Virus record (IMG/VR): IMGVR_UViG_3300015157_000014
Coordinates: 1 to 14,250 of that record
Direction: 5' to 3' (one strand)
From: a virus
Lineage: Duplodnaviria; Heunggongvirae; Uroviricota; Caudoviricetes
DNA length: 14,250 nt
Part shown: positions 133-14,250 of the stretch, piece by piece
Position numbering within the stretch: the stretch's first letter is position 1
Layout: each line of letters opens with the position of its first letter
Made by a program: the position numbers and the translations under genes
Notes under the pieces: generated by a model
The model's input: the letters and a program-made list of their open reading frames with translations, nothing else
Databases searched by the model: none
Told to the model about the DNA's origin: nothing

Positions 133-1023
133 TCAGTAGTTATGTACTGAAGGAGGTAATTCTTTATTCTTAAGTCTCATCCATGCGGAAAGATTCTTTG
201 GTCCGTCTGGCTCATTGATATCAACATCTCGTGTGTGATTGATTAAAACGTCTCTCGCCATTCCGATAACATACGAGAATTCATGACCGTAGTCGTAGCA
301 TCTGCCTGAATAGTTCGATTGAATTTGTTTTAGCGCCGGATACAGTTCGCGGAATAATGCCTGTGAACGGTTGGCATAATCCCATAACCATACAAGGCTG
401 TTTGCTTCTTTTGCAGAAAGCTCGTTGGTTTTCTTCTCTTGTTTGCCGATGAATTCACCTTCAAGCACTACCCTGTGGATGTACTCTACGGCCAGCGGGA
501 TTTGTTCAATTGAAAGTTCATCAATGCTGTCAATACCAAAACGCTGATGAACCATATTGTATGCATCGTCATAGCGAAGTCCTTTCTTTCCTACCAGCAT
601 GTTTACTGCATCTCGTAGCGGTGTGCGTTCAGCTACTGAAGTTTTACCTCCAATAGCCTTCCTCTCTTGTGTGGCAGTAACCATTGCGTCATATGCACGG
701 ATAACCTTCAGCGCAAAGGCTGCGCTAATCCACATGGCGTAGGAGTAAACAAGCTCCTTGCACACGTAGGTTCCACCATATCGACCTTTCTTAGAAAGGA
801 CGGGATTCTTATTCTGCATATCCGCAGAATTAAAAATTTCATTAATCAATTCAATAGTTTCATTTCTACGCATGAAGAAAGCTGGCTGATGTTTTTCCTC
901 CTTTCCAGACGCTACATGAAGGTCATTAAGCGAGTAACGCCCCTCTGAATCCATATGAATCTTGACGTCAGAAATGATGATGCTATTAGTGCAATTTACA
1001 GTTGACTTTGCTAAGCTTGACAT
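133..1023 (-). CDS. ant: Antirepressor Ant-like protein (296 aa)
   Basis: Long ORF downstream of arc in the same orientation, close in size to P22 Ant (about 300 aa by recollection). GAGG Shine-Dalgarno about 9 nt upstream of the ATG. The N-terminal region looks like a phage antirepressor DNA-binding domain, but I did not verify the domain. Confidence 0.7.
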
Positions 1024-1055
1024 ATCAATAATACCTCGTAAGTTTTGTTGATACC

Positions 1056-1096
1056 GAAGCCCTGACTGTTACAGCAGTTGGGGCTTCAACGTTTTT
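1056..1096 (+). terminator. Plus-strand hairpin plus T-run; candidate terminator of a sar-like antisense RNA
   Basis: Extended stem 1056..1087 (gaagccc.../...gggcttc with inner actg/cagt pairing), then aacg and TTTTT (1092..1096) on the plus strand. The minus strand has no U-run after it, so it is orientation-specific. The T-run is 4 nt away from the stem, which weakens the call. Confidence 0.3.
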
Positions 1097-1355
1097 CCAC
1101 TTCATTTTGAATTTGCTTAAGTAGCATATTTGTCTCGTCAAGCCTCTTGTTAATACGGTCAAGGCTTTCTACTAAATCGTTATGTGCATGTGATACTTCG
1201 TAATTTGAGACTGATTTTTTTTCCTCTATCGTCTTTGTCAATCGTTCCCCTGATTGATACATATTGATTAACGATGTAAAAATCACGAGCAAGCAAACTA
1301 CAATGATTGCGCCAGACAAAAATTGTAAAGAACGATCAAGCAATGACACCTTCAT
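1086..1355 (-). CDS. Hypothetical small membrane protein (89 aa): one N-terminal transmembrane helix plus C-terminal coiled coil, inserted between arc and ant
   Basis: ATG overlaps the arc TGA stop (ATGA overlap at 1352..1355). GAGAGGGG Shine-Dalgarno-like sequence upstream within the arc 3' end. Hydrophobic stretch AIIVVCLLVIFTSLI followed by a heptad-like charged segment. Visibly AT-rich. Confidence 0.55.
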   Translation of the reverse strand: MKVSLLDRSLQFLSGAIIVVCLLVIFTSLINMYQSGERLTKTIEEKKSVSNYEVSHAHNDLVESLDRINKRLDETNMLLKQIQNEVEKR

Positions 1356-1510
1356 ACCGTAATCCCCTCTCTCTTCAGGCTGTCCATCACTCGCTTGTAA
1401 ATCTCAGAGTTAACAGATCGCCCGTTCTCTTCCGCCACCTTACGCACCAAATCCAATACTTCTTTAGGCCACCGCAAATTGAACTGCGGCATTTTGCTCA
1501 TTCCTTTCAT
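1352..1510 (-). CDS. arc: Arc repressor (ribbon-helix-helix), 52 aa
   Basis: Translation MKGMSKMPQFNLRWPKEVLDLVRKVAEENGRSVNSEIYKRVMDSLKREGITV is near-identical to P22 Arc as I recall it (MKGMSKMPQFNLRWPREVLDLVRKVAEENGRSVNSEIY...). GAGGTGA Shine-Dalgarno 4-5 nt upstream. The start is at the internal Met of the 73-aa track ORF. Confidence 0.9.
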   Translation of the reverse strand: MKGMSKMPQFNLRWPKEVLDLVRKVAEENGRSVNSEIYKRVMDSLKREGITV

Positions 1511-1524
1511 ATTCACCTCACAAT

Positions 1525-1545
1525 ATAGGTCCACCGTGGACCTAT
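1525..1545. promoter_or_regulatory. Mnt operator (O_mnt), perfect 21-bp palindrome
   Basis: ataggtccaccgtggacctat is a perfect inverted repeat about a central base. Its core aggtccac-c-gtggacct matches the P22 mnt operator as I recall it. It overlaps the predicted Pant transcription start. Confidence 0.85.
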
Positions 1546-1573
1546 TGAGAATATAGTAGAGTGCTTCTATCAT
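1545..1573 (+). promoter_or_regulatory. Pmnt promoter (drives mnt and probably the downstream cassette)
   Basis: Plus strand reads TTGAGA (1545..1550), a 17-nt spacer, then TATCAT (1568..1573). It overlaps Pant divergently and is covered by O_arc. GGGGTGA Shine-Dalgarno precedes the mnt ATG. Confidence 0.6.
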
Positions 1574-1578
1574 GTCAA
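1550..1578 (-). promoter_or_regulatory. Pant promoter (drives arc-orf89-ant)
   Basis: Minus strand reads TTGACA (1573..1578), a 17-nt spacer, then TATATT (1550..1555). Predicted start near 1542 falls inside O_mnt. Confidence 0.7.
1553..1573. promoter_or_regulatory. Arc operator (O_arc)
   Basis: atagtagagtgcttctatcat is the reverse complement of ATGATAGAAGCACTCTACTAT, the P22 arc operator as I recall it, with TAGA/TCTA half-sites. It sits between the -35 and -10 of Pant and over the Pmnt -10. Confidence 0.8.
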
Positions 1579-1600
1579 TACACTAACTTGGGGTGATGGC

Positions 1601-1849
1601 ATGGCTAGAGACGATCCGCACTTTAACTTCCGTATGCCTTTGGAAGTAAGAGAAAAATTGAAATTAAGAGCAGAGGCTAACGGAAGGTCAATGAACTCTG
1701 AGTTATTACAAATCGTTCAGGATGCTCTCTCAAAGCCATCACCGATTGCAGGCTATCGAGACGAAGCTGAACGCTTGGCTGATCAGCAAGCAGAAATTGT
1801 TAAGAAGATGGTGTTTGAAACCCTGAAAAAAATGTACGAGACCAGATAG
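1601..1849 (+). CDS. mnt: Mnt repressor (ribbon-helix-helix; maintenance of lysogeny, represses Pant), 82 aa
   Basis: Translation MARDDPHFNFRMPLEVREKLKLRAEANGRSMNSELLQIVQDALSKPSP... is near-identical to P22 Mnt as I recall it. Divergent from arc across the operator region. Confidence 0.9.
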   Translation: MARDDPHFNFRMPLEVREKLKLRAEANGRSMNSELLQIVQDALSKPSPIAGYRDEAERLADQQAEIVKKMVFETLKKMYETR

Positions 1850-1891
1850 GTCAATGTTTGTTCGTTGATATAAAATAACAAGGTATACATT

Positions 1892-2491
1892 GTGATTGAG
1901 ATAGGCGTTATGGCCATCCTGAATCAAGAGCCAGGAAAAATTGAAAACGTTTTTTCTGACATATCAACATCTATCGAGCGTTCAATTTCAGACTTTGATC
2001 GCAGTCATAGCGGCTCTTTGTCTAAAAAACAGGCTTCTGAAGCTCTTAGCAAGATCTACTGCGTTATGTCACCTGTAGAGGAAGTTTGCAAAAAGTACAT
2101 TACATTCATTGACATATTAAGTAATGGTACGGAAGAAGATATTTCCTCACTTGATATTCAACATGACGATGTAGATATGTTGAACGATCAAATATCTAAG
2201 CTTGATTATGGTATCGCGAAACTGTTGTATACCTTCTTCATCGCTGAGAACAGCGATGCGTGGAAGCCCCATATGTCAACTCTTACAACAATGAAAAACC
2301 ACTCAATAAATACTTTTATAGAATACAAAAGGCTAACTATGGGGCTTGTGACGCTAGCAATGCAGCACATACCACTATCATATGCTGAACCTGAAGAGTT
2401 CACTGAAGAAGAGTTGGCTTCATTCAAGAAATCAGTTGAAGATTCACATAAAAGATTTGGCATGGAAGCACCAAAATGGAAAACCGCATAA
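1892..2491 (+). CDS. Hypothetical protein (199 aa; 193 aa if the ATG at 1910 is used), acidic, no transmembrane segment; first gene of the accessory cassette
   Basis: Long ORF in visibly AT-rich DNA, directly downstream of mnt with no terminator seen in between. Its 3' end overlaps the next ORF by 16 nt. Start is ambiguous (GTG at 1892 or ATG at 1910). No recognisable motif. Confidence 0.55.
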   Translation: MIEIGVMAILNQEPGKIENVFSDISTSIERSISDFDRSHSGSLSKKQASEALSKIYCVMSPVEEVCKKYITFIDILSNGTEEDISSLDIQHDDVDMLNDQISKLDYGIAKLLYTFFIAENSDAWKPHMSTLTTMKNHSINTFIEYKRLTMGLVTLAMQHIPLSYAEPEEFTEEELASFKKSVEDSHKRFGMEAPKWKTA

Positions 2492-2895
2492 GCATTGTTG
2501 TAGATGCAGCGGCTGGACCATTAGAACAATACTTTGCGAAGGCTCTTGCAAACTACAAAAACAGAGGCACCGTTTCAGCTTATCTTGGTAAGATTGGTGG
2601 GTTTGAGAGAAACCATCACGCCGTCTTATCGGGAATTTACAAGTCGCACATCAGGATCCCTGGAGTAGATGATCCTTGGTTAAAAACAACGCCAATACAT
2701 CGTAGAGTTAGCGATAACTTTTTGATATTTGCGGTACACAACACATATCCAATTCATATCCAGATCATTGCTATCATTAAACCTGATGGTCATGAGAAGG
2801 TAAAAAAACTATTGCCAGCCATCATTGATATAACTGAAAAAAGATTCCAATCTCTAAATGAGAGGGAGCTTAACTCGTTGATTTCATACAAATAA
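2476..2895 (+). CDS. Hypothetical basic protein (139 aa) with a possible RelE/YafQ-like toxin-fold signature
   Basis: ATG preceded by GGAAG about 7 nt upstream; overlaps the 199-aa ORF by 16 nt. The segment GIYKSH...DDPW...HRR...FLIFAVH...IQIIAIIKPDGHE loosely resembles the YafQ/RelE C-terminal pattern (YKDH...PDWILIY...LLRFERTGTH). This rests on weak motif similarity only. Confidence 0.55.
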   Translation: MENRISIVVDAAAGPLEQYFAKALANYKNRGTVSAYLGKIGGFERNHHAVLSGIYKSHIRIPGVDDPWLKTTPIHRRVSDNFLIFAVHNTYPIHIQIIAIIKPDGHEKVKKLLPAIIDITEKRFQSLNERELNSLISYK

Positions 2896-2917
2896 AATAT
2901 CAACTAAGGGGGTTAGT

Positions 2918-3247
2918 GTGCTTGAATGGTTTCTGTTGGCTGCATTAGTCGTTTCTGGTTTGGTGTATGAGTATCGAATGCACTCTCTAACAAAAAAAAT
3001 AGGAATTCTAGAAAACGAATATTGTGCTCTCAAATCCTCACTGGAACGTGATCAAGGAGACTTAAAAATCTCTCTGTCTAGCATTGAGCGTTCTATAGAG
3101 AGCCTAGAGGATAAGGTTGATCGTATAAAGAATGAGGATATTCATGATATTAAGGACGACATATCCTTCTTAAAATCTTGGTTGAAAAATGTTGGGAAAA
3201 TTGCCACATCAACACGAGATAAGCTCAATCCATCCATGGATGACTAA
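2918..3247 (+). CDS. Hypothetical small membrane protein (109 aa): N-terminal transmembrane helix plus coiled coil
   Basis: GTG start with strong AAGGGGG Shine-Dalgarno 5 nt upstream. Hydrophobic N-terminus WFLLAALVVSGLV, then a heptad-like charged region. Its stop abuts the gp16 stop on the opposite strand (TAATTA). Confidence 0.55.
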   Translation: MLEWFLLAALVVSGLVYEYRMHSLTKKIGILENEYCALKSSLERDQGDLKISLSSIERSIESLEDKVDRIKNEDIHDIKDDISFLKSWLKNVGKIATSTRDKLNPSMDD

Positions 3248-5416
3248 TTACTCCTGTGCCATTCCGCTTAGCGATGCCACAATTCCAGCCCTTGCTAAAC
3301 GCTGGAACTCTTCGTTTCCTAGTGCCTCGCGTATTGCTTTTACGGCGGCCTTATTTGCCATAAATCTGCGTTCCGCCGCCGCTAATGCACCATCACTTGC
3401 CCCAACCTTAACTGCCTTTGTTGCCTCTTGAACAGCCTTTTCAATAGCGTAACGACCGCTTCTAGTTGCGGATAATTTCGCTATCGCTCCTTTTGCCATT
3501 GCATCAATTGCTCCACCTGCAGCGCCACCCGCTATTGCTCCAATAACGCCTCCTCCAGAGAACCCTGCGATAGTGCCAGTAGTTCTAAAAGCGCCAGACA
3601 ATGCGCTCTCTAAAACTGGATGAAGGCCATTCTCAAGAGTGCTAATGGCTGGCATAGATCGCCCTGTCTGTTCAACATATCGAAGTGGCTTTGTTGCTGC
3701 TCTTGCAAGTTCTCCGTATGAACTTGTAATCCTGCCAAGTTCTGGAGAATATCGACTAATTGCCTTCACGTTTTGTGGGGTAAGAATAGTCGCGATATGC
3801 TTAATTCCAGCCTCTTCAGACTTACCTCCGCGTACCCCTTGCGACATTGCATCTTGTAATATTGATGCAATTGCTGGCGCGCGTTCCGACTCAGGTAGGG
3901 CGCTTATTATTTTATGGAACTGACCTGTTCCACTTTTTGCTGAGCCCTGTAACGCCTTAGAGCCATTATTTACCAACTGATCAGTTGCAAGGTCTCTGCC
4001 AAACGCTGCTTCAGCCTGTTCTTGTGCTGTAAATCTTGCCTTTGACAGGTCATTAGCTTTTTGCCAGTCATCAAGAAAACCGCCATTTTGAGCCATTATG
4101 CGCATATCTTCCGTTGCTGCATCACGAAGCTCAGCCATGCGCCTTGCCGTATTTGCCTCACCAGACCTTATATACTTCTGCTCTGCGTCAGCAAGTTTAC
4201 TTCGCCATGCCTTCATGGCATCAAACGTGATTCCTTTTTTACCAGTTTTAGCATAAGCAGATGCGAATTGTTTCATCTCAGGAGTTAGCGGCATGCCAGC
4301 CAAAATATCACCCTGAATTGTAGCGTTCAGGTTTGACATTCTGGCCTTTGCGTCAGGCATCGTGGAGCGGACGCTATCCCATGCGGCCTTTTCTGAATTT
4401 TTCATTTTATCAATGCTTGCCAAAACCCTCTGTTTTATGGCTGCACTTTTTTCTGATGCAGTTCCTGCTTCAGCCCCAAACTCATCCAATGCTGAGTTAA
4501 ATTTCGACTCTATTTCACTGAATGCTTTGGTGTGTGCATCCTGTGTAATTCCGGGCTTTGACGCCAGAATCCCCTCCGCCTGAGCAAGACCACGACTACC
4601 TGATCTCATGCCAGGAGTTAATGCGTTGATATCTATTCCAGCAGTATCTGCTGCTTTTGCTATTTCGTCTGACACATTAGCTGACTGTCTGGCAATAATC
4701 TCTCTTCCTGTACCAGACTTTGCCATTTTCGAAACATCAGCAGCGGAATTTATTGCCCCGCCACCAAGAACTTGAGGTGATTTAGAGGTTAAGATCCTTC
4801 CAGCCCCAGAAAGTATCCCCTGAGCACCAATATTGATACCACCGTTAATGGCAGCATTTTGTGCAAAGTCGCCCTCCTGATTTGCAGCATCAGCAAGAGA
4901 ACCTGCAATCATGTTTCCTGCGGAACCGATATCTCCAGCGAGCTTTGCTGGCGCTCCAGCAGCTTTTGCCGCTGTGCCAATTGGCAGGAGATACCCACCA
5001 ATTGTTTCACCGGCTTGCGCATAAGGGTCTGTCGGTCGATCGACTGGACGATAGACATCATCCAAAACCTTTGGGCCACCAAGCCCCTGGCTGATTGCAT
5101 TAATCAGACTTGCGCCACCCTGCAATACGTCAAATGGTATGTTTACCAGACCACGACCAGCCTGTTCTGCAATTTGCCCTGCACTTTGACCACCTGTGAG
5201 CCAATCACCAGCTTGTTGCATCAATGATGGTTCTTCTTTCTGCTGCTGAGGTGGAGGGTATGCTGCATAAAACTGATCTCTTGCTTCAGCCCATTTGTCA
5301 CCAGCCTTAGGGGCAACAACCTCATCAAAATATTGCGCTTGAGCCTGTGCTTTCTGTTCTTCAGTTAACGCCTGATACTGTGGAGAAGCGATAACATCTT
5401 TCCATGCTTTAGCCAT
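3248..5416 (-). CDS. Ejection (internal virion) protein, gp16-like, 722 aa
   Basis: Last gene of the minus-strand late operon, at the position of P22 gene 16. Ala/Gly/Gln-rich composition typical of podovirus ejection proteins. Start overlaps the gp20 stop (TAATG). Confidence 0.8.
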
Positions 5417-6765
5417 TAATCACCCCATAAAGACGAGAAACCGGACTTATTGCTGTCGCTTCCTGATTTTCGCTCACTAACATATGTGTCATAACCTGAT
5501 GAACTATATCCCATTGATTCAGCCTCCCTTGCTGCAACCTTTTGAAATACAGAATATTGCGATCGGATTTCAGATAACTGTTTTCTGACGACCTCTTCAG
5601 GCTGTGTTATATCGAGTTTCGCGATAAGGTTTTCCAGTTTTTGTCCTTCAGCATTGGAGAGGCTACCCATACCTCGCATAGTCTGCACGTTCTGGACAAA
5701 CGCACCCGACTTTAATTCTTCTATCGCATTACGGTTTGCAAGCCCTTCAGCACTTGTGAAGCCATCTATATTTCTTCCTTCGAAGCGACCGATACCTTCA
5801 AGCTCCTTCTTACCAAGCAAAGAATCTATTTTCTCTATCCCTCGCTCACCAGTAATCAACGCATTGTTGTAATTATTGTTGCCATCAAGCCATCTCTTAG
5901 CCTGAGACATTCTGGCTGACGTTGCAGCTTTACCGGTTAGCGGATCAATTCCCGTCGCTGCTATCTGTGAGTTAAGAGACAAAACATCCATATCCTGAAG
6001 TTGTCCTGCTCTTTCAAGGGCCGCCTGTGACTGCTTAAACACATACTTGTCGTGATTCAGTCTTGCCATTTGAGCCTTATAGGAAAGATCCTGCCCCCTA
6101 ATAGCCCTCGCATTCGTCATGTCATTATTGCGAATGGTTTCGTTAATTCTTTGCTGCTCCTGCTGGCGACCAACCATCTTATCCTGAACAGCAAACGCCT
6201 TTTCTGGCCCAAGTGCACCGAGAGACATAGTAGTCAGCATGTGTGATAGCTGCTCTGGATTCTGAATACCTGTCTGAATCATCCAGTCAGCATTCGCCCC
6301 CACGCGATTTAACCTGTCCTTGTTATCAGTAATGAATTTACTGTAGGCTTCCGGTCCCTGAGAAAGAGCGACGTTAGCCCTCATGGCTAAATCGCCCATA
6401 TCGTTGCGTTGCTGCTCATTAAGACCGGAAAATGCCTGTTGTGCCTGTGCAACAAACGCTGGATTTTCCTGGGCAAACTTAAATAGTCCCGATGGATCAC
6501 CAGAAGCCCATGCATCAGCGTGAACCTTATTGAACGCATTAATCGCTTTCTGTTGCTGTTCCTGCTTATAAATATCAGCAACTCCAGCCAGACCACGTAA
6601 CGCGGTCAGACCAACGTTATTTGCACCTGAGCGAGCCAATTCATTGTTTTCGCGGATCAGACCAAGCGTTGCGTTAATGTCGCTTGCCTTTGGCGCATTC
6701 TCGTTTTGCGCACCAATGCCAGCCAGAAAACCACCAGAATTAATACCCTGTTGCCACGTAGCCAT
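5416..6765 (-). CDS. Ejection protein, gp20-like, 449 aa
   Basis: Position and size fit P22 gp20 (about 471 aa by recollection). Translationally coupled to gp16. Confidence 0.8.
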
Positions 6766-6774
6766 GATTACCCC

Positions 6775-7467
6775 TTAAAACAACGAGCCAAGCAGACCAA
6801 GACCGCCGCCGATCGCAGCCCCCCACGGAGTTGATAGCTCGAGAGCACTGGCTATGCCACCACCCAAAAGCGCACCGGATGCAGCACCACTAACCCCCTG
6901 CTGCAATGCTGACGGTCGGTTGGCGTTTGCCGCAGCCAGCGCCGCGCTTTGCTGCGAAATCTGACTCATGTTGTTGGCATATGTCTGCCCGGCGTTCGCC
7001 TGACCTTGCAGTGCGCCAAGACCAATGTTTGCCAGATTCTGGTAGTTGTTCATCTGACCAGACAGCCACTGCTGACCAAGCGTTGGTGCGATTGTTGCTA
7101 ACTGATTACTGGTTGCGGTGGAACCCAATCCACCTGTTGCTTCCGCTGCAGCCAGACTCTGATAGCGAGCCTGACCTGCAAGGTCTTTATACTGCTGAGA
7201 GTTGTAATACTGGTTAAGCGCCTGACCTTGCCCTTCCAGAGACGATAAGTTCTCGAGGCTGCCGACATACTTATCAGCCAGAGGAGTAAACGGCTTCAGG
7301 TTGTTCATGATGGTGTTGAACTGCTGATTTTGCAGGTCTGCAGCATACTTCTGGGCTTCTGCTGCATACTTTGCGCTTTTATCAGAACTGCCACCTTTCC
7401 CGCCTTTTTCAGGGCAATAAGGTTCCTCGCCGCGCAGTTTTCTGCCCAGCTTAAATGCATATAACAT
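6775..7467 (-). CDS. Ejection protein, gp7-like, 230 aa, Gly-rich C-terminus
   Basis: Position and size fit P22 gp7 (about 229 aa by recollection). Gly/Ala-rich hydrophobic C-terminal tail. Confidence 0.75.
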   Translation of the reverse strand: MLYAFKLGRKLRGEEPYCPEKGGKGGSSDKSAKYAAEAQKYAADLQNQQFNTIMNNLKPFTPLADKYVGSLENLSSLEGQGQALNQYYNSQQYKDLAGQARYQSLAAAEATGGLGSTATSNQLATIAPTLGQQWLSGQMNNYQNLANIGLGALQGQANAGQTYANNMSQISQQSAALAAANANRPSALQQGVSGAASGALLGGGIASALELSTPWGAAIGGGLGLLGSLF

Positions 7468-7469
7468 GG

Positions 7470-7925
7470 CTATCTCCCGTGATTCAGGAAGTCGATTAGT
7501 TCTTCGCGTGTGGCGCTGTAAAACGTCACGTCATCCACGCCTTTGAAGTATTTCTTGATGGTTCCTACACGCTTAAGGCCAATCATTGCGCAGTACATCT
7601 GCCCGTGGCGGAATTTGCGTGCAGCGAACGATGTGACGCACTGAACGGTGGTGTTAGTCAGAATGTATCGCCAGAACGCCAGCCCGATTTCCTTGCTGAA
7701 GCCGCGAATCTCTGGCAGGTACATGGCGTGGCAATCGAATGTAAGCGGCTGAATCTCCTGATAGTAAACAATGCCGCCGAACTGACCGTGCACGTTAACC
7801 TCAAAGTAACGGCATTCAGGCTTGTAGTCGTATCCATCACCGTTGTTGCTTCCGGCAATAATGTCAGGGTGATTTCCGACTGCTTCGATCAGGTCGATGT
7901 TTCGCGTTGGTTTGAATGTAATCAT
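7470..7925 (-). CDS. gp14-like protein (151 aa)
   Basis: Lies between the tail needle and gp7 genes, as P22 gene 14 does. Start overlaps the gp26 stop (TGATG). Confidence 0.7.
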   Translation of the reverse strand: MITFKPTRNIDLIEAVGNHPDIIAGSNNGDGYDYKPECRYFEVNVHGQFGGIVYYQEIQPLTFDCHAMYLPEIRGFSKEIGLAFWRYILTNTTVQCVTSFAARKFRHGQMYCAMIGLKRVGTIKKYFKGVDDVTFYSATREELIDFLNHGR

Positions 7926-8626
7926 CAGTCAATCAGCCCATGTAATCTAAGTGCTGTTTCAAGCGCCAGAATACGCTGCCGCGCCTGCTCCAAACCTGTA
8001 GCGAGAGCTGCGACTTCGGATTGTGTGTACGTAGTGCCGACCGTGTATGACTGGTTAGCGTTGAATGAACCAAGAAGTGGCGTACCTGTGGCTGCAGTCC
8101 ATCCGGTATTTCTTGCTCCAACAACCTGAATTCCATCAACTGAATATGATGTTTTTACATCCAGCGGTGACGCAAGAGACTGCGATTTGGTTACAGTTTT
8201 CGATACGTAATCACTCTTAATGTCAGATACATCGCTTTCTACGCCATCCAGTCTTTTGTCAACAGTGACCAGATGCGCCTGAATATCGATAACCTCATCC
8301 AGCAAGTAATCAACATCGCTGCGCAGTACGACTATCTTCCCTTCGGCGGTTGTTAACCTGACCTCAAGGAGATTTATCGCTTTTGTGTTTGCGGTGATTC
8401 TTGCATCGTGGTCAGCCAGTTCGACATCCTGTTCATCGTTTTTTACTTGGGCATCATAAGCGCCCTGACCAGCCTGATTTGCCTTCCCGGCAATTGCGCC
8501 GACATCAGCCCCCTGATTAATGACATACAGCAGGTAAGACTGGCTGAATATATTGCGTGGCAAAATTGAAGCATCAAGGCGCGTAGCCTGAACCGCGACA
8601 GGATTATTCAGTGATGAATCCGCCAT
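7925..8626 (-). CDS. Tail needle protein, gp26-like, 233 aa
   Basis: N-terminus [36 protein letters not shown]...[22 protein letters not shown] and C-terminus ...SQSLASPL...GWTAATGT...ALRLHGLID closely match P22 gp26 as I recall it, and the length is the same. Central trimeric coiled-coil heptads are present. Confidence 0.9.
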
Positions 8627-10044
8627 TACTCAATCCTTATCTGAGCGCCAGACAGAGTTACAGGTGACTTCGTGATAACGCGCAATTTGAAGCCGACATT
8701 TTTCCTGATGCGCCCTACTCGCTTCCACAAAACGCGTTTGTCGTAAACGAACGGTTCATTCTGCTCAATCATCTGCTCACGTCCGTAATTGATGCCGTCA
8801 GTGGTTGCAGAGAGAAAAAGGCGGTCAGCATACTGCGCAACTCCAGTTGAAGATTCAACTTCAAGGTCGAAAACTCTGGCGTTATCTGCTTTGAACAACG
8901 GAGTAAACAGCAGGTGCTCCTGTTGCTTGTCGTACTGGCTGCTGATATCGAACTGCAATTTCCCGGTCACGGACTCTAGCTTATCGCCGCACGTTATCTG
9001 ATTGCCTTCGTAAATGAAGTCGATAGCGCGGTACACATCGTCATACAGGCCTGTTTTCAGCACACACCATTGCGGACCATTGGCACTTGAAGATGCGTCG
9101 TAAACAAGAACATGGCGCGGCAGGTGAATAATCAGCAACTCATGAGCATCAAACCGCAACGATTCCATCACGCCATCAGCCAGTTCATCAGCAGTGTAGG
9201 AGCGTAGTATTTTCTCAATGCTCGCGCTGGCGATTGGTGACACCTGACCGGAGCCGATGATGTACACAGACGGCGCACCTGTTGCCGGATTGCTGATGAA
9301 CGCATAGGAATCAGCAAACGGCGTTTTGCAGTAAGTTCCGGCGATGCCTTTTTGCACCATCAGCGATGGCTGCGCGACATACAAAGCAGCACCAACGGTG
9401 GTTGCACCAGTCAGGGAGAAATATTCAATCGTTGATGAACCAAAGCATACGATGAAGTCTCGCCATGTTCCGATGCCGATGATGCCGTCAGGCTGCGATT
9501 CTGCGCGATATTGTGCGCTGTAGCGGTCAGGGTGCGATTCGTCTTCAGGGTCAGTGATAAACCATGAATCAGTACCGTCTTTTGACCACGCATAACGCCC
9601 GCGTAAGCGCGTAATGTCGCGGACGGACCCTAACTCATACTGCGTGAATCCGCTGTCCGCAGGCCAGTTTGAGACGGTTTTAACCGTGCCATCATAGCGA
9701 TACTCGACCAGTTGCCCGTTAACGCCTACCGCCTGTGATGTTCGACCATGCGCCATTGATACGCGACCACTTCCGGCAACATCACCGACCTCACTTTCTC
9801 CTTTGTACAGCTTCCCACCACACACGCGATAAACAGCACTCTGCGCCATGTTGTACTCGACGCCTCGCGATACGCCGTTCACATCAGAACGTTTGGCAAT
9901 GCCCGGGAATGAGCGAAGATATCCGCTGCTGTTCAGGATTTCTTTGGGTGTAGCCAACATATTCACTGGCAGATAGTCGATATAGTCGGCGTTTCGAAAG
10001 TCTTTGCCGACACCTTTCATAAGTGGAAGTTGCTGAATCGGCAT
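8626..10044 (-). CDS. Tail hub / head completion protein, gp10-like, 472 aa
   Basis: Position between gp4 and gp26; same length as P22 gp10 (472 aa by recollection). Start overlaps by one base the stop of the upstream gene. Confidence 0.85.
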
Positions 10045-10053
10045 TTATTCACC

Positions 10054-10515
10054 TCACGTACTCGGATCATCTTTCTCGATGTAAAACCGATTCCACGTAA
10101 ACGCGCTTTTGTTACCACTACCGCGAGGCATGTCATTTCGTCGCTCAAGTGGTGGTATTTTGGTTAAAGCGATACAGATTGTCTGATATGCACTGTCAGC
10201 AGCGGTCAGGAGAGCATCCGACGGCTGAATGACGTTATCCATGCACACCTGCACAGCGAGCTTCAAAGCGACGCCATCATTTGCCCATGCAGGGATACCT
10301 GAATCATCGTCAGGTAACGGCATGATGCCGTTTTCTGTATCAGCAAACTGATATCCAAGCTCGATACCTTTCGCCTGCCATGCTGCCATCATGTCTTCGA
10401 GGTCATTAATGGCATCTTCAATTGCCTGAGGGTCGGCATCTGTCAACGTGGCATTGGAATACAGCCCGGCTTTTCGTAAAGCCTTAAGAACGAGATCACC
10501 CTTCGTTTTCGCCAT
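10054..10515 (-). CDS. Tail accessory factor / head completion protein, gp4-like, 153 aa
   Basis: Position after the coat gene. N-terminus MAKTKGDLVLKALRKAGLYSNATLTD resembles my recollection of P22 gp4. C-terminal ...MPRGSGN... motif. Confidence 0.8.
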   Translation of the reverse strand: MAKTKGDLVLKALRKAGLYSNATLTDADPQAIEDAINDLEDMMAAWQAKGIELGYQFADTENGIMPLPDDDSGIPAWANDGVALKLAVQVCMDNVIQPSDALLTAADSAYQTICIALTKIPPLERRNDMPRGSGNKSAFTWNRFYIEKDDPST

Positions 10516-10684
10516 CTTCTTCCGCCTTAGCCACTTTTTGCTTCGTTGCGGTTTCTTCAGGAGTTTTTACCCAGCCTTTTTTCAGGTGAGATTTAACTTC
10601 TTCGTCATCAACAATGATGTAATCGACAGCAAACTGACCACAGGTGATCATGTTGCCAGGCTTATAGAGCATTGTTCGTGCCAT
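10496..10684 (-). CDS. Small hypothetical protein (62 aa from the ATG at 10684) between coat and gp4
   Basis: The track ORF begins at a TTG codon right after the coat stop. A better start is the ATG at 10682..10684, preceded by GGGAGAAGACA. Its 3' end overlaps the gp4 start by 20 nt. Some P22-like phages carry a small ORF here. Confidence 0.45.
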   Translation of the reverse strand: MARTMLYKPGNMITCGQFAVDYIIVDDEEVKSHLKKGWVKTPEETATKQKVAKAEEDGENEG

Positions 10685-10695
10685 TGTCTTCTCCC

Positions 10696-10719
10696 AATAA
10701 AAATGGGGCCGAAGCCCCA
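10696..10719 (-). terminator. Rho-independent terminator or attenuator immediately after the coat gene
   Basis: On the minus strand, 6-bp stem (tggggc/gcccca) with a UUCG tetraloop (10704..10719), followed by UUUUUAUU (10696..10703). Lies just past the coat stop at 10726 and just before the small-ORF Shine-Dalgarno. Confidence 0.6.
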
Positions 10720-10725
10720 CCAAAA

Positions 10726-11985
10726 TTACTGCCCGGCAATAACGATGCCCGTATATTCAGGAACAAGTACAGAGCAACCGTACAGAGTGGTGAAACGAGC
10801 AGTGGTTACGCCTTTGATGTGGTCGAAGGCGTAAGACATGATCAGCGTAGCGCCCTGCTCGGTGGTTGCTGTCATTACCTGTGGACCCTGACCAGTCGGG
10901 AACGCCAGTTTGCCGTACATCAGTTCAACAGAACCATCAGCCCAGAACAGGTTAGCCGGTGCGGCATTTTTGTTGAGAATGGTGATTGCTGCAGTTTCTG
11001 CCGGCTTGGCATCGACGTTTGCATATGGACGGCTCGCAACATCGGCATTTCCAACAGGGAGAATCTTTGGAGAGATTGTTACGGTGGTTCCTGCTGTGTC
11101 TACTGCCAGAACGCGGAATACCTGCGGCTGCCCGGTGGTATCTTTGGTGATCTGGTGTACGGAATTCACACCTGCGATGGTAAACGCATCGCCAACCTGC
11201 AAGCCTTTAGCAGATACCGTAATGGTCCCCTGTCGGTTATCAACAGGCATGCCATTTGAATCTTTCGCTTCAACCTTGTGTTCAGGTTGATTTGATACTG
11301 TCAAGGTTTCAGTGCTTCCTGCCGGTAATCGACCGGAAATATCGGTCTTGTAGCTATCAAAGGAAGCAACCGGAGGGATCTGCGCTTTTTCGTATGCTGT
11401 CAGGGTTGCGCCCTGAGCGTAGGCACGGTGACCAAGCTCGCCAGCAAGGTCTTTGTAGTTGAAGGGGTTCCAGAAAGAGCGACGGTTGATACCCTGAGGT
11501 ACACCAATCGCCGTCATGGTGGCATCAATATCTGCCGCACCATTCCACAAGGCAAGGCCCCGTGAGCCATTTTCTGAGGCAGGAATTGCGACCACGTTAG
11601 TAGCACGCTGCGTGACCATGGAAATCAGGTCAGAGTCAATCTGTGCAGCAAGGCGCATACCTGCGGCTCGACCAGCTTCAGTTTTATGTTCCGGGTCACG
11701 CATTTCACGCGCATCCAGAGTGTACAGAATGTTTTTCGGCTCCTTGAACACAGAAGGAACAAGGCGCTGAACCAGTGCTGTTGGCGTTTTGCTGCTGAGA
11801 TCGAGGCCTTCCTCAATGTTCATGTGGTAATGCTGCGGACGATACAGAACATCACCTGCTCGCTGCATTGCGGTATCACCGGGACGGAATTTTTTAGCGT
11901 TACGGGAAACTACGCAGGCGGCCTCAAAGCCTTCAACGTAGTTTTCGAACATGATTTCAAGGTCTTTTGCTAATTGGTTAGCCAT
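10726..11985 (-). CDS. Major capsid (coat) protein, HK97-fold P22-like family, 419 aa
   Basis: Position between scaffold and gp4; size close to P22 gp5 (about 430 aa). Sequence looks diverged from P22 coat, possibly a different coat type such as Sf6 or CUS-3 (unverified). Confidence 0.85.
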   Translation of the reverse strand: MANQLAKDLEIMFENYVEGFEAACVVSRNAKKFRPGDTAMQRAGDVLYRPQHYHMNIEEGLDLSSKTPTALVQRLVPSVFKEPKNILYTLDAREMRDPEHKTEAGRAAGMRLAAQIDSDLISMVTQRATNVVAIPASENGSRGLALWNGAADIDATMTAIGVPQGINRRSFWNPFNYKDLAGELGHRAYAQGATLTAYEKAQIPPVASFDSYKTDISGRLPAGSTETLTVSNQPEHKVEAKDSNGMPVDNRQGTITVSAKGLQVGDAFTIAGVNSVHQITKDTTGQPQVFRVLAVDTAGTTVTISPKILPVGNADVASRPYANVDAKPAETAAITILNKNAAPANLFWADGSVELMYGKLAFPTGQGPQVMTATTEQGATLIMSYAFDHIKGVTTARFTTLYGCSVLVPEYTGIVIAGQ

Positions 11986-12003
11986 GCTTAATGCTCCGAT
12001 AGG

Positions 12004-12897
12004 TTATTTTTTTGCCTTTTTAGCGGCGAAATACGGCGTCCAGTCACCAGTTTCCAGCGCCTTGGCTTTCAATTTGTCGAGGTTGTTGATTACTGCGCCG
12101 TTGCTCCCCTTAACTGTCGGGGTTGTGGCTGCCGTGGTTTTTGCTTTTGGCATGATTCTGGCCTTCGATTCGATACGTTCCAGCAGACGACCAATTGCTA
12201 CGGGGTTGGTAGCTTCTGCCAGTTGCTTGCGCAGTTCAGCGTTGCGACCGAGTGCCAGAACAACGATTTCCGGCTTCTCTGACTCAAACAGGATCGCGTT
12301 TTGTGTCTCGATGGGGATTTCCTCGAGTACGGCCTGCTCAGCTTCCTGATAGCCAGGAACTTTGAGAGCCTTAACACGTTGCTGATATTTGGATAATCGC
12401 TCTTGATAGGCAGCCTGAATCTCCTGCTCCTTTTGCTTGCGAGCCATCTCCTGTTGCTGGTACTTGCCGTTATCCTCTGCCCACTTAGCCATGCGTTGCT
12501 GGTAGATTTCTTCATCGAAACCGATGTCCTCATCGTCCAGTTTTGGCATTCGCGGTGGTTGAGTGATTACCGGCTGCTGCTCGACGGGTTTCTGAGACTG
12601 ACGCATCAGCTCTTTCAGCTCGCGGTCTTTCTCTTTAATCGTCTTGCGCAGGTGTTTTACCAGTCCATGCTCTGCGCTATCTTCGCTGGTTGGCGAATCC
12701 AGCTTTTCGTCACCAAAGTAGAATTCCTGTTCTGATTCGTCGTCATCAGTTTCAGTAGCTTCCTCTGCATCATTGCCGGAGGACTCACTGCCATCTTCTG
12801 TTTCGACTTCTTCAGCCAGTTCGACATCATCAGGAATCTGCTCTGACGCGTCGGTTTCGATTTCAACTTCTGGTGTGTTTTCTGCCATCTGGTCCAT
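12004..12897 (-). CDS. Scaffolding protein, 297 aa
   Basis: Highly acidic N-terminus, Glu/Lys/Gln-rich helical middle and basic C-terminal tail (KKAKK), typical of P22-like scaffold. Lies between portal and coat. Confidence 0.85.
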   Translation of the reverse strand: MDQMAENTPEVEIETDASEQIPDDVELAEEVETEDGSESSGNDAEEATETDDDESEQEFYFGDEKLDSPTSEDSAEHGLVKHLRKTIKEKDRELKELMRQSQKPVEQQPVITQPPRMPKLDDEDIGFDEEIYQQRMAKWAEDNGKYQQQEMARKQKEQEIQAAYQERLSKYQQRVKALKVPGYQEAEQAVLEEIPIETQNAILFESEKPEIVVLALGRNAELRKQLAEATNPVAIGRLLERIESKARIMPKAKTTAATTPTVKGSNGAVINNLDKLKAKALETGDWTPYFAAKKAKK

Positions 12898-12987
12898 TTG
12901 TTACCCCTGTTTACTCGATGTTCAGCCCATCGGAAGGCAATAGGGTGCCAGGCCTCATAAAGACAGCCATTGCACGTTATGGGTTAA

Positions 12988-14250
12988 TTACTGCTGTGGT
13001 TGTTGCCGGGTTGATTTTTGCAGGATGCTGCTGATGTCCATGCGCTGCGCATGGCCCTGTGCCTGACTTTTCAGGACAAGCTCTGCATCAGCACGGGCAT
13101 TGTCTCCTTGCTGTTGCTGGAACTGTCCGAGCAGTTTCAGAGCCTCGCGGATATCAGATTTCTGCTGGCTATCGGCAGATGCGAGTATTTTCACAACATT
13201 TGCCGCTGCAACCTGAGCATCAGTCTGTGCCTGGAATGCTTTAACCTGAATGGCTGCCTGTTCGTTCTGCGCTTTCTGCAATTCAGCCTGACCAGCAAGA
13301 AGCTGACCTTGCGCTGCAACCATAGCCGGATCTGGCTGACTGGCCTGTTGTTGTTTCGCCTGTTCAACCATCTGCTGTTCTTCAGGCGTTCTCGGCTTGA
13401 TAACGCCAGACAGAAGCAACTGATTGCGGTTGTATTCTTTAAGGTCGTCCATCCCTTCGCCGTCCATATTGTCGAGAATCATCGATGATACAAGGTCGTG
13501 CTTCGGCGTTCCTGGTGGGATAAGTGCCAGCATGGAAAGTAACGACTTAACCGTTGCATCACGGCGAGTAGCGAACGACTGACCGACATCGACAGTCACT
13601 TCATAGTTACCCTGCGAAAGGTCGTTAAGCGCGATAACCTGCCCTGTCTGACGGTCAACCACTTCACCAGTCATCAGCGCCACGTCATCGCTGCCATCCT
13701 CATTAACGATGCGCATTGGCGTATCGCTGCCATAGACTTCACGAGCCATAGAAAGCCACACGACGCCAGCACGGCGCATGGATTTAGCCATGTTGTCCAT
13801 GTAGATATAGGACTGCGTGTCCATCCGGTTAAAGATGCTATCAACGGTATCGGTAGCGACGTTGCTCGGCATGTTCTCAAGCTGCGACGCACCTGTAATT
13901 TGCTGAATAGCCGTTCCGGTGTACTGCAATAGCCCGGCAAGAGCAGGAGGCATTTGTGTCGGAGGTGTCCAGCCAGCAACCTGAGCCTCTGAAATGACCG
14001 TTCCGTTTTTGTCCTTCTTGCTGGTCATGGGAAGAACTGCAGGTCTTTTCTTATTCCTCTCTGCCCAGTGATTCATTAATGGACCGGGAATGAAATCAAC
14101 ATCCACGATAGGAATGCCATCACCGCCAGCCTGAGTAGCGTTATCTGCAATCATGGAAACCATCAGGTTCTCAAGACGCTGTGCATCCATCGCTTTTGCT
14201 GCGTGGCCTTCGATTCGCTCCTGATTATCAACAAATGAACGACGCCCATA
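12988..14250 (-). CDS. Portal protein, C-terminal part (gene runs past the right window edge)
   Basis: The frame stays open upstream of the track Met through 14250 (...YGRRSFVDNQERIEGHAAKAMDAQRL...). C-terminal region (...TPEEQQ...QAKQ...DPAMV.AQG.LL.GQAEL.KAQN...HAQRMDISSILQ...) matches my recollection of the P22 gp1 helical barrel region. Confidence 0.9.
   Translation of the reverse strand, partial: YGRRSFVDNQERIEGHAAKAMDAQRLENLMVSMIADNATQAGGDGIPIVDVDFIPGPLMNHWAERNKKRPAVLPMTSKKDKNGTVISEAQVAGWTPPTQMPPALAGLLQYTGTAIQQITGASQLENMPSNVATDTVDSIFNRMDTQSYIYMDNMAKSMRRAGVVWLSMAREVYGSDTPMRIVNEDGSDDVALMTGEVVDRQTGQVIALNDLSQGNYEVTVDVGQSFATRRDATVKSLLSMLALIPPGTPKHDLVSSMILDNMDGEGMDDLKEYNRNQLLLSGVIKPRTPEEQQMVEQAKQQQASQPDPAMVAAQGQLLAGQAELQKAQNEQAAIQVKAFQAQTDAQVAAANVVKILASADSQQKSDIREALKLLGQFQQQQGDNARADAELVLKSQAQGHAQRMDISSILQKSTRQQPQQ

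What the first reader, a model, noticed from the sequence alone, without database searches (positions are those of the whole stretch)
2476..2895. Basic 139-aa protein with a RelE/YafQ-like signature, translationally coupled to the upstream acidic ORF
The stretch GIYKSH-IRIPG-DDPWL-HRR-FLIFAVH-IQIIAIIKPDGHE has the residue order and spacing of the conserved region of YafQ/RelE-type mRNA interferases (Tyr-Lys-x-His, Asp-Trp, alternating hydrophobic beta strands ending in Gly-His). The protein is lysine, arginine and histidine rich. Its start overlaps the 3' end of the acidic 199-aa ORF by 16 nt, an arrangement reminiscent of a toxin with its partner, although the 199-aa protein is far larger than a typical antitoxin. 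It could be a toxin-like effector of an abortive-infection or addiction module. This is a weak-motif inference.
Basis: inference. Interest (0 to 1): 0.6.

Follow-up and report, generated by a model that had tools for sequence, protein, structure and literature searches.

The report
Prophage YafO-type toxin with unknown partner
The 139-aa protein is a divergent YafO-family mRNA-cleaving toxin, not RelE or YafQ, and it always travels with a rare uncharacterised 199-aa helical acidic protein as a mobile two-gene cassette that here fills the superinfection-exclusion slot of a P22-like E. coli prophage.

Summary
ORF 2476-2895 encodes a basic 139-aa protein (pI 9.6) whose start overlaps the acidic 199-aa ORF 1892-2491 (pI 4.9) by 16 nt. 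Both genes are under strong purifying selection.

- The protein passes Pfam's cut-off for YafO_toxin (PF13957), and RefSeq already names it a YafO family toxin.
- It shows no sequence similarity to RelE or YafQ.
- A moderate-confidence AlphaFold model matched no RelE/ParE structure.
- Some authors place YafO in the RelE/ParE superfamily; others keep it apart.

The new part is the partner.
- It is unrelated to YafN and has no Pfam or PDB relative.
- Only 18 cluster representatives exist among 1.84 billion proteins.
- The model shows a four-helix bundle, an acidic linker and a conserved C-terminal tail.
- The pair recurs in about 20 unrelated sites: several prophage backbones, plasmids, and between housekeeping genes.
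- Homologues with a different tail pair with a different small basic protein (phrog_5954).

Best reading: a type II toxin-antitoxin-like cassette with a new modular antitoxin, expressed with mnt in lysogens. Abortive-infection defence or prophage addiction is plausible, and toxicity is untested. This is a new variant of a known kind and of moderate interest.

The parts
2476..2895 (+). ORF139: divergent YafO-family (PF13957) toxin-like protein, 139 aa, pI 9.6
   Evidence: Pfam PF13957 45.1 bits, E 1.1e-11, against a cut-off of 25. phrog_1651 E 4.5e-37. PGAP names it 'type II toxin-antitoxin system YafO family toxin'. dN/dS 0.07-0.12.
2551..2841 (+). YafO_toxin domain match (residues 26-122). 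It contains the residues invariant or nearly invariant with K-12 YafO: K56 (2641), H58 (2647), W68 (2677), R77 (2704), D80 (2713), P103 (2782), H106 (2791)
   Evidence: Pfam envelope. Alignment A13 including K-12 YafO has H58, R77, P103 and H106 invariant and K56, W68 and D80 at >=90%. Codon positions.
1892..2491 (+). ORF199: acidic all-helical partner and putative antitoxin, 199 aa, pI 4.9. Rare uncharacterised family (phrog_18235)
   Evidence: No Pfam, NCBIfam or PDB relative. Only 18 representatives among 1.84e9 proteins. Found immediately upstream of the YafO-like gene in every locus examined. dN/dS about 0.08.
1931..2362 (+). ORF199 predicted four-helix bundle (residues 14-157). It contains the motif I28-ERSISDFDRS-H39 (1973-2008) and the near-invariant W124-x-P126-H127 (2261-2272)
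   Evidence: AF2 model with pLDDT 77.2 and helices 14-38, 45-78, 91-119, 125-157. Alignments A7 and A9.
2363..2404 (+). ORF199 acidic low-confidence linker (residues 158-171, ...IPLSYAEPEEFTEE)
   Evidence: No secondary structure at residues 158-171; mean pLDDT 56 for residues 161-170, with 165-167 below 50.
2405..2488 (+). ORF199 C-terminal helix and tail (residues 172-199, ...SVEDSHKRFGMEAPKWKTA). Proposed toxin-specific neutralising element
   Evidence: The tail type co-varies with the downstream gene family. 'SHKxxGxxxPxW' tails sit with YafO-like genes, while 'PxWVKSGxDFVKW' tails sit with phrog_5954 genes. L028 carries only the second tail on an unrelated N-terminus.
2464..2491 (+). Coupling region: SD-like GGAAG (2464-2468), ORF139 ATG (2476-2478), and the 16-nt overlap up to the ORF199 stop (2489-2491)
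   Evidence: Sequence. The identical 16-nt overlap occurs in Pectobacterium, Xenorhabdus and a viral contig.
1545..1849 (+). Pmnt-like promoter (1545-1573) and mnt (1601-1849). Probable source of transcription for ORF199 and ORF139
   Evidence: Promoter-like site matching 10 of 12 positions, and no terminator-like site between mnt and ORF139. Mnt and Arc Pfam hits. The gap between mnt and ORF199 is only 42 nt.

Best explanation
ORF199 and ORF139 form a mobile two-gene, type II toxin-antitoxin-like cassette. ORF139 is a divergent YafO-family endoribonuclease that would stop translation by cleaving mRNA in association with the ribosome. This activity is inferred from family membership and from retention of H58, R77, D80 and H106. 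ORF199 is its cognate neutralising partner and belongs to a previously uncharacterised family. It consists of an N-terminal four-helix bundle, an acidic flexible linker, and a short C-terminal helix and tail that probably binds and masks the toxin (inferred). The two genes are translationally coupled through a 16-nt overlap. In this CUS-3-type P22-like prophage they lie directly downstream of mnt, in the prophage-expressed immI segment where P22 carries sieA. They are therefore probably made in lysogens. The most likely biological role is abortive-infection-type defence against superinfecting phages or stabilisation of the prophage. That last step is the least certain.
For: Family: Pfam PF13957 at 45.1 bits against a cut-off of 25. 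hhalign to K-12 YafO gives E 4.5e-5. H58, R77, P103 and H106 are invariant with K-12 YafO. K-12 YafO is an experimentally shown toxin that cleaves translated mRNA (PMC2814082; PMC7781912).

Partnership: an acidic 190-210-aa protein sits immediately upstream, overlapping by 10-16 nt or abutting the toxin gene, in the window and in every related locus examined. These loci come from Pectobacterium, Xenorhabdus, Providencia, Proteus, viral contigs, a bat-faeces siphovirus, and Enterobacter, Shigella and Pantoea plasmids. The partners are homologous even where very divergent: 92.6% and 98.5%.

Mobility: the cassette lies between housekeeping genes at two different Xenorhabdus sites and one Pectobacterium site. 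It also lies after tape-measure genes, inside baseplate modules, next to cI-like repressors, and next to mnt/arc.

Modularity: the tail type tracks the downstream gene family, and the L028 protein carries only the tail.

Selection: dN/dS is about 0.1 for both genes. The pair is intact in all 44 E. coli genomes that carry it.

Expression context: a Pmnt-like promoter is present and there is no terminator before the pair. The mnt-sieA segment of P22 is prophage-expressed, and only 22 of 66 P22-like phages carry sieA there (PMC10883804). GC content is 38-40% against about 50% in the structural genes.
Against: There is no experimental evidence of toxicity or neutralisation for this subfamily. ORF139 is only 19% identical to K-12 YafO and scores 14 bits against the NCBIfam equivalog, whose cut-off is 153. 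The catalytic residues of YafO are not established, so residue conservation is only suggestive. ORF199 has no recognisable DNA-binding domain, and no operator-like repeats were found upstream of the standalone cassettes. That is atypical for a type II antitoxin. It is also larger than its toxin. The ORF139 model has only moderate confidence (pLDDT 66.5) and matches no known nuclease fold. No PADLOC defence model is hit by ORF139; ORF199 gives only a sub-threshold match (PtuB1, E 0.005, 14.5 bits). The pI of the toxin-like protein falls to 5.5-7.8 in distant subgroups.
Confidence: 0.65

Rival explanations
1. ORF139 is a RelE/YafQ-type (BECR-fold) ribosomal A-site mRNA interferase, and ORF199 is its antitoxin.
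For: Pfam and Gerdes 2025 group PF13957 with the BECR-fold RelE/ParE families (PMC11980606). Christensen-Dalsgaard 2010 reported RelE-like cleavage patterns for YafO and a RelE-like predicted secondary structure. The element order in the model, with helices flanking an antiparallel sheet, is loosely compatible.
Confidence: 0.15
2. The pair is a sensor-effector defence system rather than a classical toxin-antitoxin pair. The ORF199 helical bundle would sense a phage cue and release or activate the YafO-like nuclease, with the conserved N-terminal IERSISDFDRSH motif acting as the sensing or regulatory site. Neutralisation at rest would be only part of its function.
For: The partner is large and structured and has conserved surface motifs unrelated to toxin type. 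The IER..DFDRSH motif is identical between homologues that are only 27% identical overall and that pair with different downstream proteins. The cassette sits repeatedly in prophage accessory-gene slots, including the sieA slot. No DNA-binding domain is present.
Against: There is no similarity to any PADLOC model at a meaningful score. No phage trigger is known. The same architecture also occurs between chromosomal housekeeping genes. This reading extends the main explanation and does not exclude it.
Confidence: 0.25
3. ORF139 is a degenerate, non-toxic YafO-like domain, and the pair has a non-toxic role in phage biology such as regulation or virion-associated function. Alternatively the functional unit is a three-gene module that includes the hkcB-like gene.
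For: The subfamily is very divergent from K-12 YafO. The cassette often lies within tail or baseplate gene clusters. hkcB follows ORF139 after 22 nt on the same strand.
Against: The His, Arg and Asp residues are retained and purifying selection is strong. The cassette also occurs outside prophages. hkcB occurs in HK620 without the pair, and the pair occurs everywhere else without hkcB.
Confidence: 0.08

Closest known systems
E. coli K-12 YafN-YafO (dinB operon) type II TA system
   Same: The toxin belongs to the same Pfam family (PF13957). The gene order is antitoxin then toxin. The toxin is small, and H58, R77, P103 and H106 are shared.
   Different: Identity is only 19% and the NCBIfam equivalog score is far below its cut-off. 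The partner is a 199-aa helical acidic protein with no similarity to the 97-aa Phd/YefM-type YafN. The genes overlap by 16 nt, whereas yafN and yafO are separated by a 2-nt gap. The location is prophage accessory-gene slots rather than the SOS dinB operon.
RelBE, DinJ-YafQ and other RelE/ParE-superfamily (BECR-fold) TA systems
   Same: The expected outcome is the same, translation arrest by mRNA cleavage. The operon logic is the same. Some authors place YafO in this superfamily.
   Different: No sequence or fold similarity was detectable here. The antitoxin lacks an RHH, HTH or Phd DNA-binding domain.
Hyperpromiscuous antitoxin domains, such as Panacea/PanA in the combinatorial TA network of Ernits et al. 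2023 (PMC10440598, seen only as an abstract)
   Same: One upstream partner domain is combined with unrelated downstream toxin families. Here those are the YafO-like proteins and phrog_5954, with a swapped partner-specific element.
   Different: ORF199 gave no hit at E<=1 to any Pfam model, which should include Panacea (DUF4065). The family is tiny, with 18 representatives, and only two toxin types have been seen so far.
P22 SieA superinfection exclusion gene
   Same: It occupies the same genomic slot, between mnt and ejection-protein gene 16, in a prophage-expressed segment of a P22-like phage.
   Different: [quoted passage not shown] The ORF199 model is an all-helical bundle and the ORF139 model an alpha/beta protein, with no Pfam relation to SieA; membrane helices were not specifically predicted for either.

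Membership tests
YafO toxin family (Pfam PF13957) | Match to the family HMM above the curated gathering score | tested here: met
   45.1 bits against a cut-off of 25, E 1.1e-11, residues 26-122 on profile positions 2-98 of 101. Distant subfamily members score 60-65 bits.
YafO toxin family (Pfam PF13957) | Conservation of the polar residues shared with the characterised K-12 YafO | tested here: met
   H58, R77, P103 and H106 are invariant and K56, W68 and D80 are >=90% conserved in alignment A13, which includes K-12 YafO. The catalytic roles of these residues are not established in the literature I could read.
YafO toxin family (Pfam PF13957) | Orthology to K-12 YafO (NCBIfam equivalog NF007377) | tested here: not met
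   14.2 bits against a cut-off of 153. BLASTP gives 19% identity and E 0.025. It is a distant subfamily and not an orthologue.
YafO toxin family (Pfam PF13957) | Cognate antitoxin of the YafN (Phd/YefM) type | tested here: not met
   hhalign of the ORF199 family against YafN gives a probability of 0.1%. ORF199 has no Pfam hit.
YafO toxin family (Pfam PF13957) | Growth inhibition and ribosome-associated mRNA cleavage | not testable with these tools
   Requires expression and RNA mapping experiments.
RelE/ParE superfamily (BECR fold), including YafQ | Sequence-profile similarity to RelE, ParE, YafQ, YoeB or HigB | tested here: not met
   No such Pfam family is hit at E<=1. hhalign to K-12 YafQ gives 0.3% and to RelE 0.2%. 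The PDB profile search returned 0 hits.
RelE/ParE superfamily (BECR fold), including YafQ | Three-dimensional similarity to solved RelE/ParE-fold toxins | tested here: inconclusive
Type II toxin-antitoxin system | Two adjacent, co-oriented, coupled small genes with a patchy, mobile distribution | tested here: met
   The 16-nt overlap is conserved across genera. The cassette occurs in more than 10 unrelated genomic contexts.
Type II toxin-antitoxin system | Antitoxin with a DNA-binding domain that autoregulates the operon | tested here: not met
Type II toxin-antitoxin system | Direct protein-protein neutralisation of the toxin by the antitoxin | not testable with these tools
   No complex prediction was available. 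It is only inferred from co-variation between the tail and the downstream gene.
Known anti-phage defence systems (PADLOC-DB v2) | Match to a defence-system protein model | tested here: not met
   ORF139 has no hits. ORF199 has only a weak chance-level hit (PtuB1, E 0.005, 14.5 bits).

The most novel reading that the evidence does not exclude
The ORF199 family is a new modular antitoxin or sensor scaffold: a four-helix bundle carrying an exchangeable C-terminal toxin-binding tail. It arms at least two unrelated small toxins, the YafO-like proteins and the uncharacterised phrog_5954 family. Together they would form a new prophage-borne abortive-infection defence family that substitutes for SieA in P22-like phages and occupies accessory-gene slots in P2-like and lambda-like tail modules.
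Probability: 0.3. Interest if true: 0.6.

Novelty: new variant of a known kind. Interest (0 to 1): 0.42.

Why it matters
If confirmed, the pair adds a new antitoxin family to the type II toxin-antitoxin repertoire. It would also give YafO-family toxins, which have no solved structure and a disputed mechanism, a second and very different cognate partner. It points by association to a further candidate toxin family (phrog_5954). The cassette sits in the slot where P22 carries its superinfection-exclusion gene, in a prophage typical of K1 extraintestinal and avian pathogenic E. coli such as UTI89, IHE3034, RS218 and APEC O18. It may therefore affect phage susceptibility or prophage stability in clinically relevant strains. 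The toxin gene itself is already correctly annotated in RefSeq, so that part of the finding is ordinary.

Tried and rejected
- An ORF199 relation to YafN was rejected.
- The PDB profile hits for ORF199 were designed helical proteins at E>=0.009, which is compositional noise.
- The PADLOC hits are at chance level.
A7 was used instead.
- Word-indexed homologue searches reached few relatives, and viral and genome scans with the toxin alignment added only Enterobacterales loci.
- Scans with P0037 and P0041 found nothing, and the A11 alignment was too divergent to scan with.
- Promoter, terminator and inverted-repeat scans upstream of the standalone cassettes were not above chance.
- A three-gene module including hkcB was rejected, because hkcB occurs without the pair in HK620 and the pair occurs without hkcB elsewhere.
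- Homology between phrog_5954 proteins and YafO was tested and not detected, despite a superficially similar motif order.
- The CUS-3 genome paper (PMC1951898) is not held in the library. No paper mentions the protein accessions or PHROG ids.

Full report
**Context.** The window is part of a CUS-3-type, P22-like (Lederbergvirus) prophage of extraintestinal and avian pathogenic E. coli.
- Bases 1580-3260 are 98.5% identical over 80% of their length to phage CUS-3. They are 100% identical to prophages in APEC strains and 98.5% identical to those in UTI89, IHE3034 and APEC O18.
- The left end is a P22 immI-type region: ant (133-1023, minus strand; KilA-N plus P22AR_C domains), arc (within 1352-1573, minus strand) and mnt (1601-1849, plus strand). 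The sar antisense RNA lies at 1025-1091 (Rfam RF00262, 63.6 bits).
- Three plus-strand ORFs follow mnt: 199 aa (1892-2491), 139 aa (2476-2895) and 109 aa (2918-3247). The ejection-protein and virion genes then run on the minus strand.
- This segment has 38-40% GC against about 50% in the structural genes.

**Observation.**
- It is basic (pI 9.62, 11 K, 8 R, 7 H), and its ATG overlaps the acidic 199-aa ORF (pI 4.91) by 16 nt. A GGAAG element lies 7 nt upstream of the ATG.
- Both are genuine genes. The amino-acid sequences are conserved across genera while synonymous sites are saturated. dN/dS is 0.07-0.12 for ORF139 and about 0.08 for ORF199.

**What ORF139 is.**
- The only Pfam family hit at E<=1 is YafO_toxin PF13957, at 45.1 bits against a gathering score of 25. 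RefSeq's pipeline already names the protein 'type II toxin-antitoxin system YafO family toxin'.
- It is a distant member. It shares 19% identity with K-12 YafO (BLASTP E 0.025; hhalign E 4.5e-5). It scores only 14 bits against the NCBIfam equivalog, whose cut-off is 153.
- An alignment of all the YafO-like sequences I gathered, plus K-12 YafO, has H58, R77, P103 and H106 invariant. K56, W68 and D80 are nearly invariant.

**The RelE/YafQ claim.**
- The sequence tests are negative. No RelE, ParE, YafQ, YoeB or HigB Pfam model is hit. hhalign to K-12 YafQ and RelE gives 0.3% and 0.2%. The PDB profile search is empty.
- The AlphaFold2 model (10-sequence alignment, pLDDT 66.5, pTM 0.59) has the element order beta-alpha-beta-alpha-beta-beta-beta-alpha-alpha.
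- Because the model confidence is moderate, this fails to support a RelE fold but does not refute it.
- The literature is divided. Christensen-Dalsgaard et al. 2010 argued for RelE relatedness from predicted secondary structure and cleavage patterns (PMC2814082). Gerdes 2025 lists PF13957 among Pfam's BECR-fold families (PMC11980606). Jurenas and Van Melderen 2020 report that YafO was made a separate family for lack of a structure (PMC7180214). YafO is also reported to bind the 50S subunit and to cut 11-13 nt downstream of the AUG (PMC7781912).
The kind of toxin and the operon logic are right. The named family is wrong.

**The partner, ORF199.**
- It has no Pfam, NCBIfam or PDB relative and belongs to phrog_18235, a family of unknown function. 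It is unrelated to YafN.
- An exhaustive profile search of 1.84 billion representative proteins found only 18 family members at E<=1e-3. The full-length ones (13 of the 18) are 187-218 aa, none longer, so no fusion to another domain; the other five are 73-162-aa fragments.

**The pairing is conserved.** An acidic 190-210-aa protein lies immediately upstream of the YafO-like gene, overlapping it by 10-16 nt or abutting it, in every locus examined. The loci are:
- Pectobacterium, between an ABC permease gene and gcvP;
- two different sites in Xenorhabdus, prfC/rimI and slt/ABC-F;
- Providencia and Proteus prophages, after the tape-measure gene;
- a myovirus-type baseplate module;
- a bat-faeces siphovirus;
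- an Enterobacter IncFIB plasmid beside a cII region, a Shigella phage-plasmid and a Pantoea plasmid;
- a P2-like contig.

Divergent partners remain homologous by profile comparison: 92.6%, 98.5%, and weaker at 42%. The Pantoea partner is not detectably homologous except in its tail. The hkcB-like third gene is not part of the module. It occurs in HK620 without the pair, and the pair occurs elsewhere without it.

**Modularity.**
- The partner family has two C-terminal types. Tails ending '...SHKxxGxxxPxW' precede YafO-like genes.
- Tails ending '...PxWVKSGxDFVKW...' precede a different, conserved and mostly basic 124-130-aa protein. That protein carries the motifs LPGRNKPS, WHYH[IV]G and FGDWTS and belongs to phrog_5954, of unknown function. 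This holds in L010 and L024-L027.
- The second family has no Pfam, NCBIfam or PDB hit and no profile similarity to the YafO-like proteins.
- In L028 a 126-aa protein with an unrelated N-terminus carries only the second tail, upstream of the same protein type.
- This co-variation is my basis for inferring that the tail is the toxin-specific binding element and that the bundle is a shared scaffold.
- The tail tryptophan (W196) shares nucleotides with the ORF139 start codon in this window. It is also conserved where the overlap geometry differs, so the constraint acts on the protein.
- An N-terminal motif, IERSISDFDRSH, is identical between homologues that are only 27% identical overall and that pair with different downstream genes. 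This suggests a second function independent of the toxin.

**Expression and role.**
- A Pmnt-like promoter (1545-1573, matching 10 of 12 positions) faces a Pant-like promoter. No terminator-like site lies between mnt and ORF139. The gap between mnt and ORF199 is 42 nt. Co-transcription with mnt in lysogens is therefore likely, though inferred.
- In P22 this segment carries sieA and is prophage-expressed. Only 22 of 66 P22-like phages have sieA there (PMC10883804).
- The pair is intact and at least 99% identical in 44 of 5,426 complete E. coli genomes, always as a single chromosomal copy.
- No PADLOC model matches meaningfully, and I found no paper that mentions these proteins.

**Verdict.** ORF139 is a correctly annotated but distant YafO-family toxin homologue. 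The new content is its conserved, rare, structurally distinct partner and the modular, mobile cassette the two genes form. The mechanism of mRNA-cleaving toxin neutralised by the partner's C-terminal tail is inferred from family membership, conserved residues, operon architecture and co-variation. Nothing has been shown experimentally for this subfamily. A role in defence or prophage addiction is plausible from the genomic context alone.

Noticed in passing
window 1025-1091 (+): Rfam RF00262 sar RNA (63.6 bits, full length). This is the P22 immI antisense RNA that regulates ant, and it confirms a functional-looking immI region.
   Followed up: partly
window 2918-3247 (+): A 109-aa hkcB-like protein (phrog_5962) with a hydrophobic N-terminal segment (MLEWFLLAALVVSGLVYEY) followed by a coiled-coil-like region. 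It is shared with phage HK620. Its stop directly abuts the convergent stop of ejection-protein gene 16 (3247/3248). Its function is unknown, and it could be a membrane-anchored exclusion factor.
   Followed up: partly
window 1086-1355 (-): An 89-aa ORF between arc and ant, with a hydrophobic N-terminal stretch and a charged C-terminal half. PGAP annotates it as hypothetical. As far as I recall, P22 has no gene at this position.
   Followed up: no
L010:2065-2457, L024:3534-3908, L025:3582-3962, L026/L027:3534-3911, L028:3104-3490: A conserved 124-130-aa protein family, mostly basic (pI 8.0-9.9; the L028 member is 6.0) (phrog_5954; motifs LPGRNKPSTGVSK, WHYH[IV]G, FGDWTS, HPP). It has no Pfam, NCBIfam or PDB relative. 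It always lies downstream of a type-B ORF199 homologue, which makes it a candidate new toxin family by association.
   Followed up: partly
L028:2740-3120: A 126-aa basic protein whose N-terminus is unrelated to ORF199 but whose C-terminus carries the type-B tail motif (RPDWVKTGADFVKWM). It lies upstream of a phrog_5954 gene, as if the tail alone had been grafted onto another scaffold.
   Followed up: partly
window 1973-2008 (ORF199 residues 28-39): The motif IERSISDFDRSH is identical in a homologue (P0025) that is only 27% identical overall and that pairs with a different downstream protein. The motif is absent from the most divergent partners. Its function is unexplained.
   Followed up: no
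L033:1869-2501 (Pantoea plasmid pPAT9B03): A 210-aa protein upstream of a YafO-family gene is not detectably homologous to ORF199, except for a similar C-terminal tail (…AAEHRNLGLPST). It may be a third scaffold for the same kind of tail.
   Followed up: partly
window 1500-3000 compared with 3500-14000: GC content is 38-40% across the mnt-ORF199-ORF139-hkcB segment and 44-54% in the ejection and virion genes. This is consistent with horizontally acquired accessory genes.
   Followed up: no
window 1352-1573 (-): The mechanical ORF for arc is 73 aa, whereas RefSeq annotates a 52-aa Arc that starts at an internal methionine. The extra N-terminal codons overlap the Pant/Pmnt promoter region.
   Followed up: no
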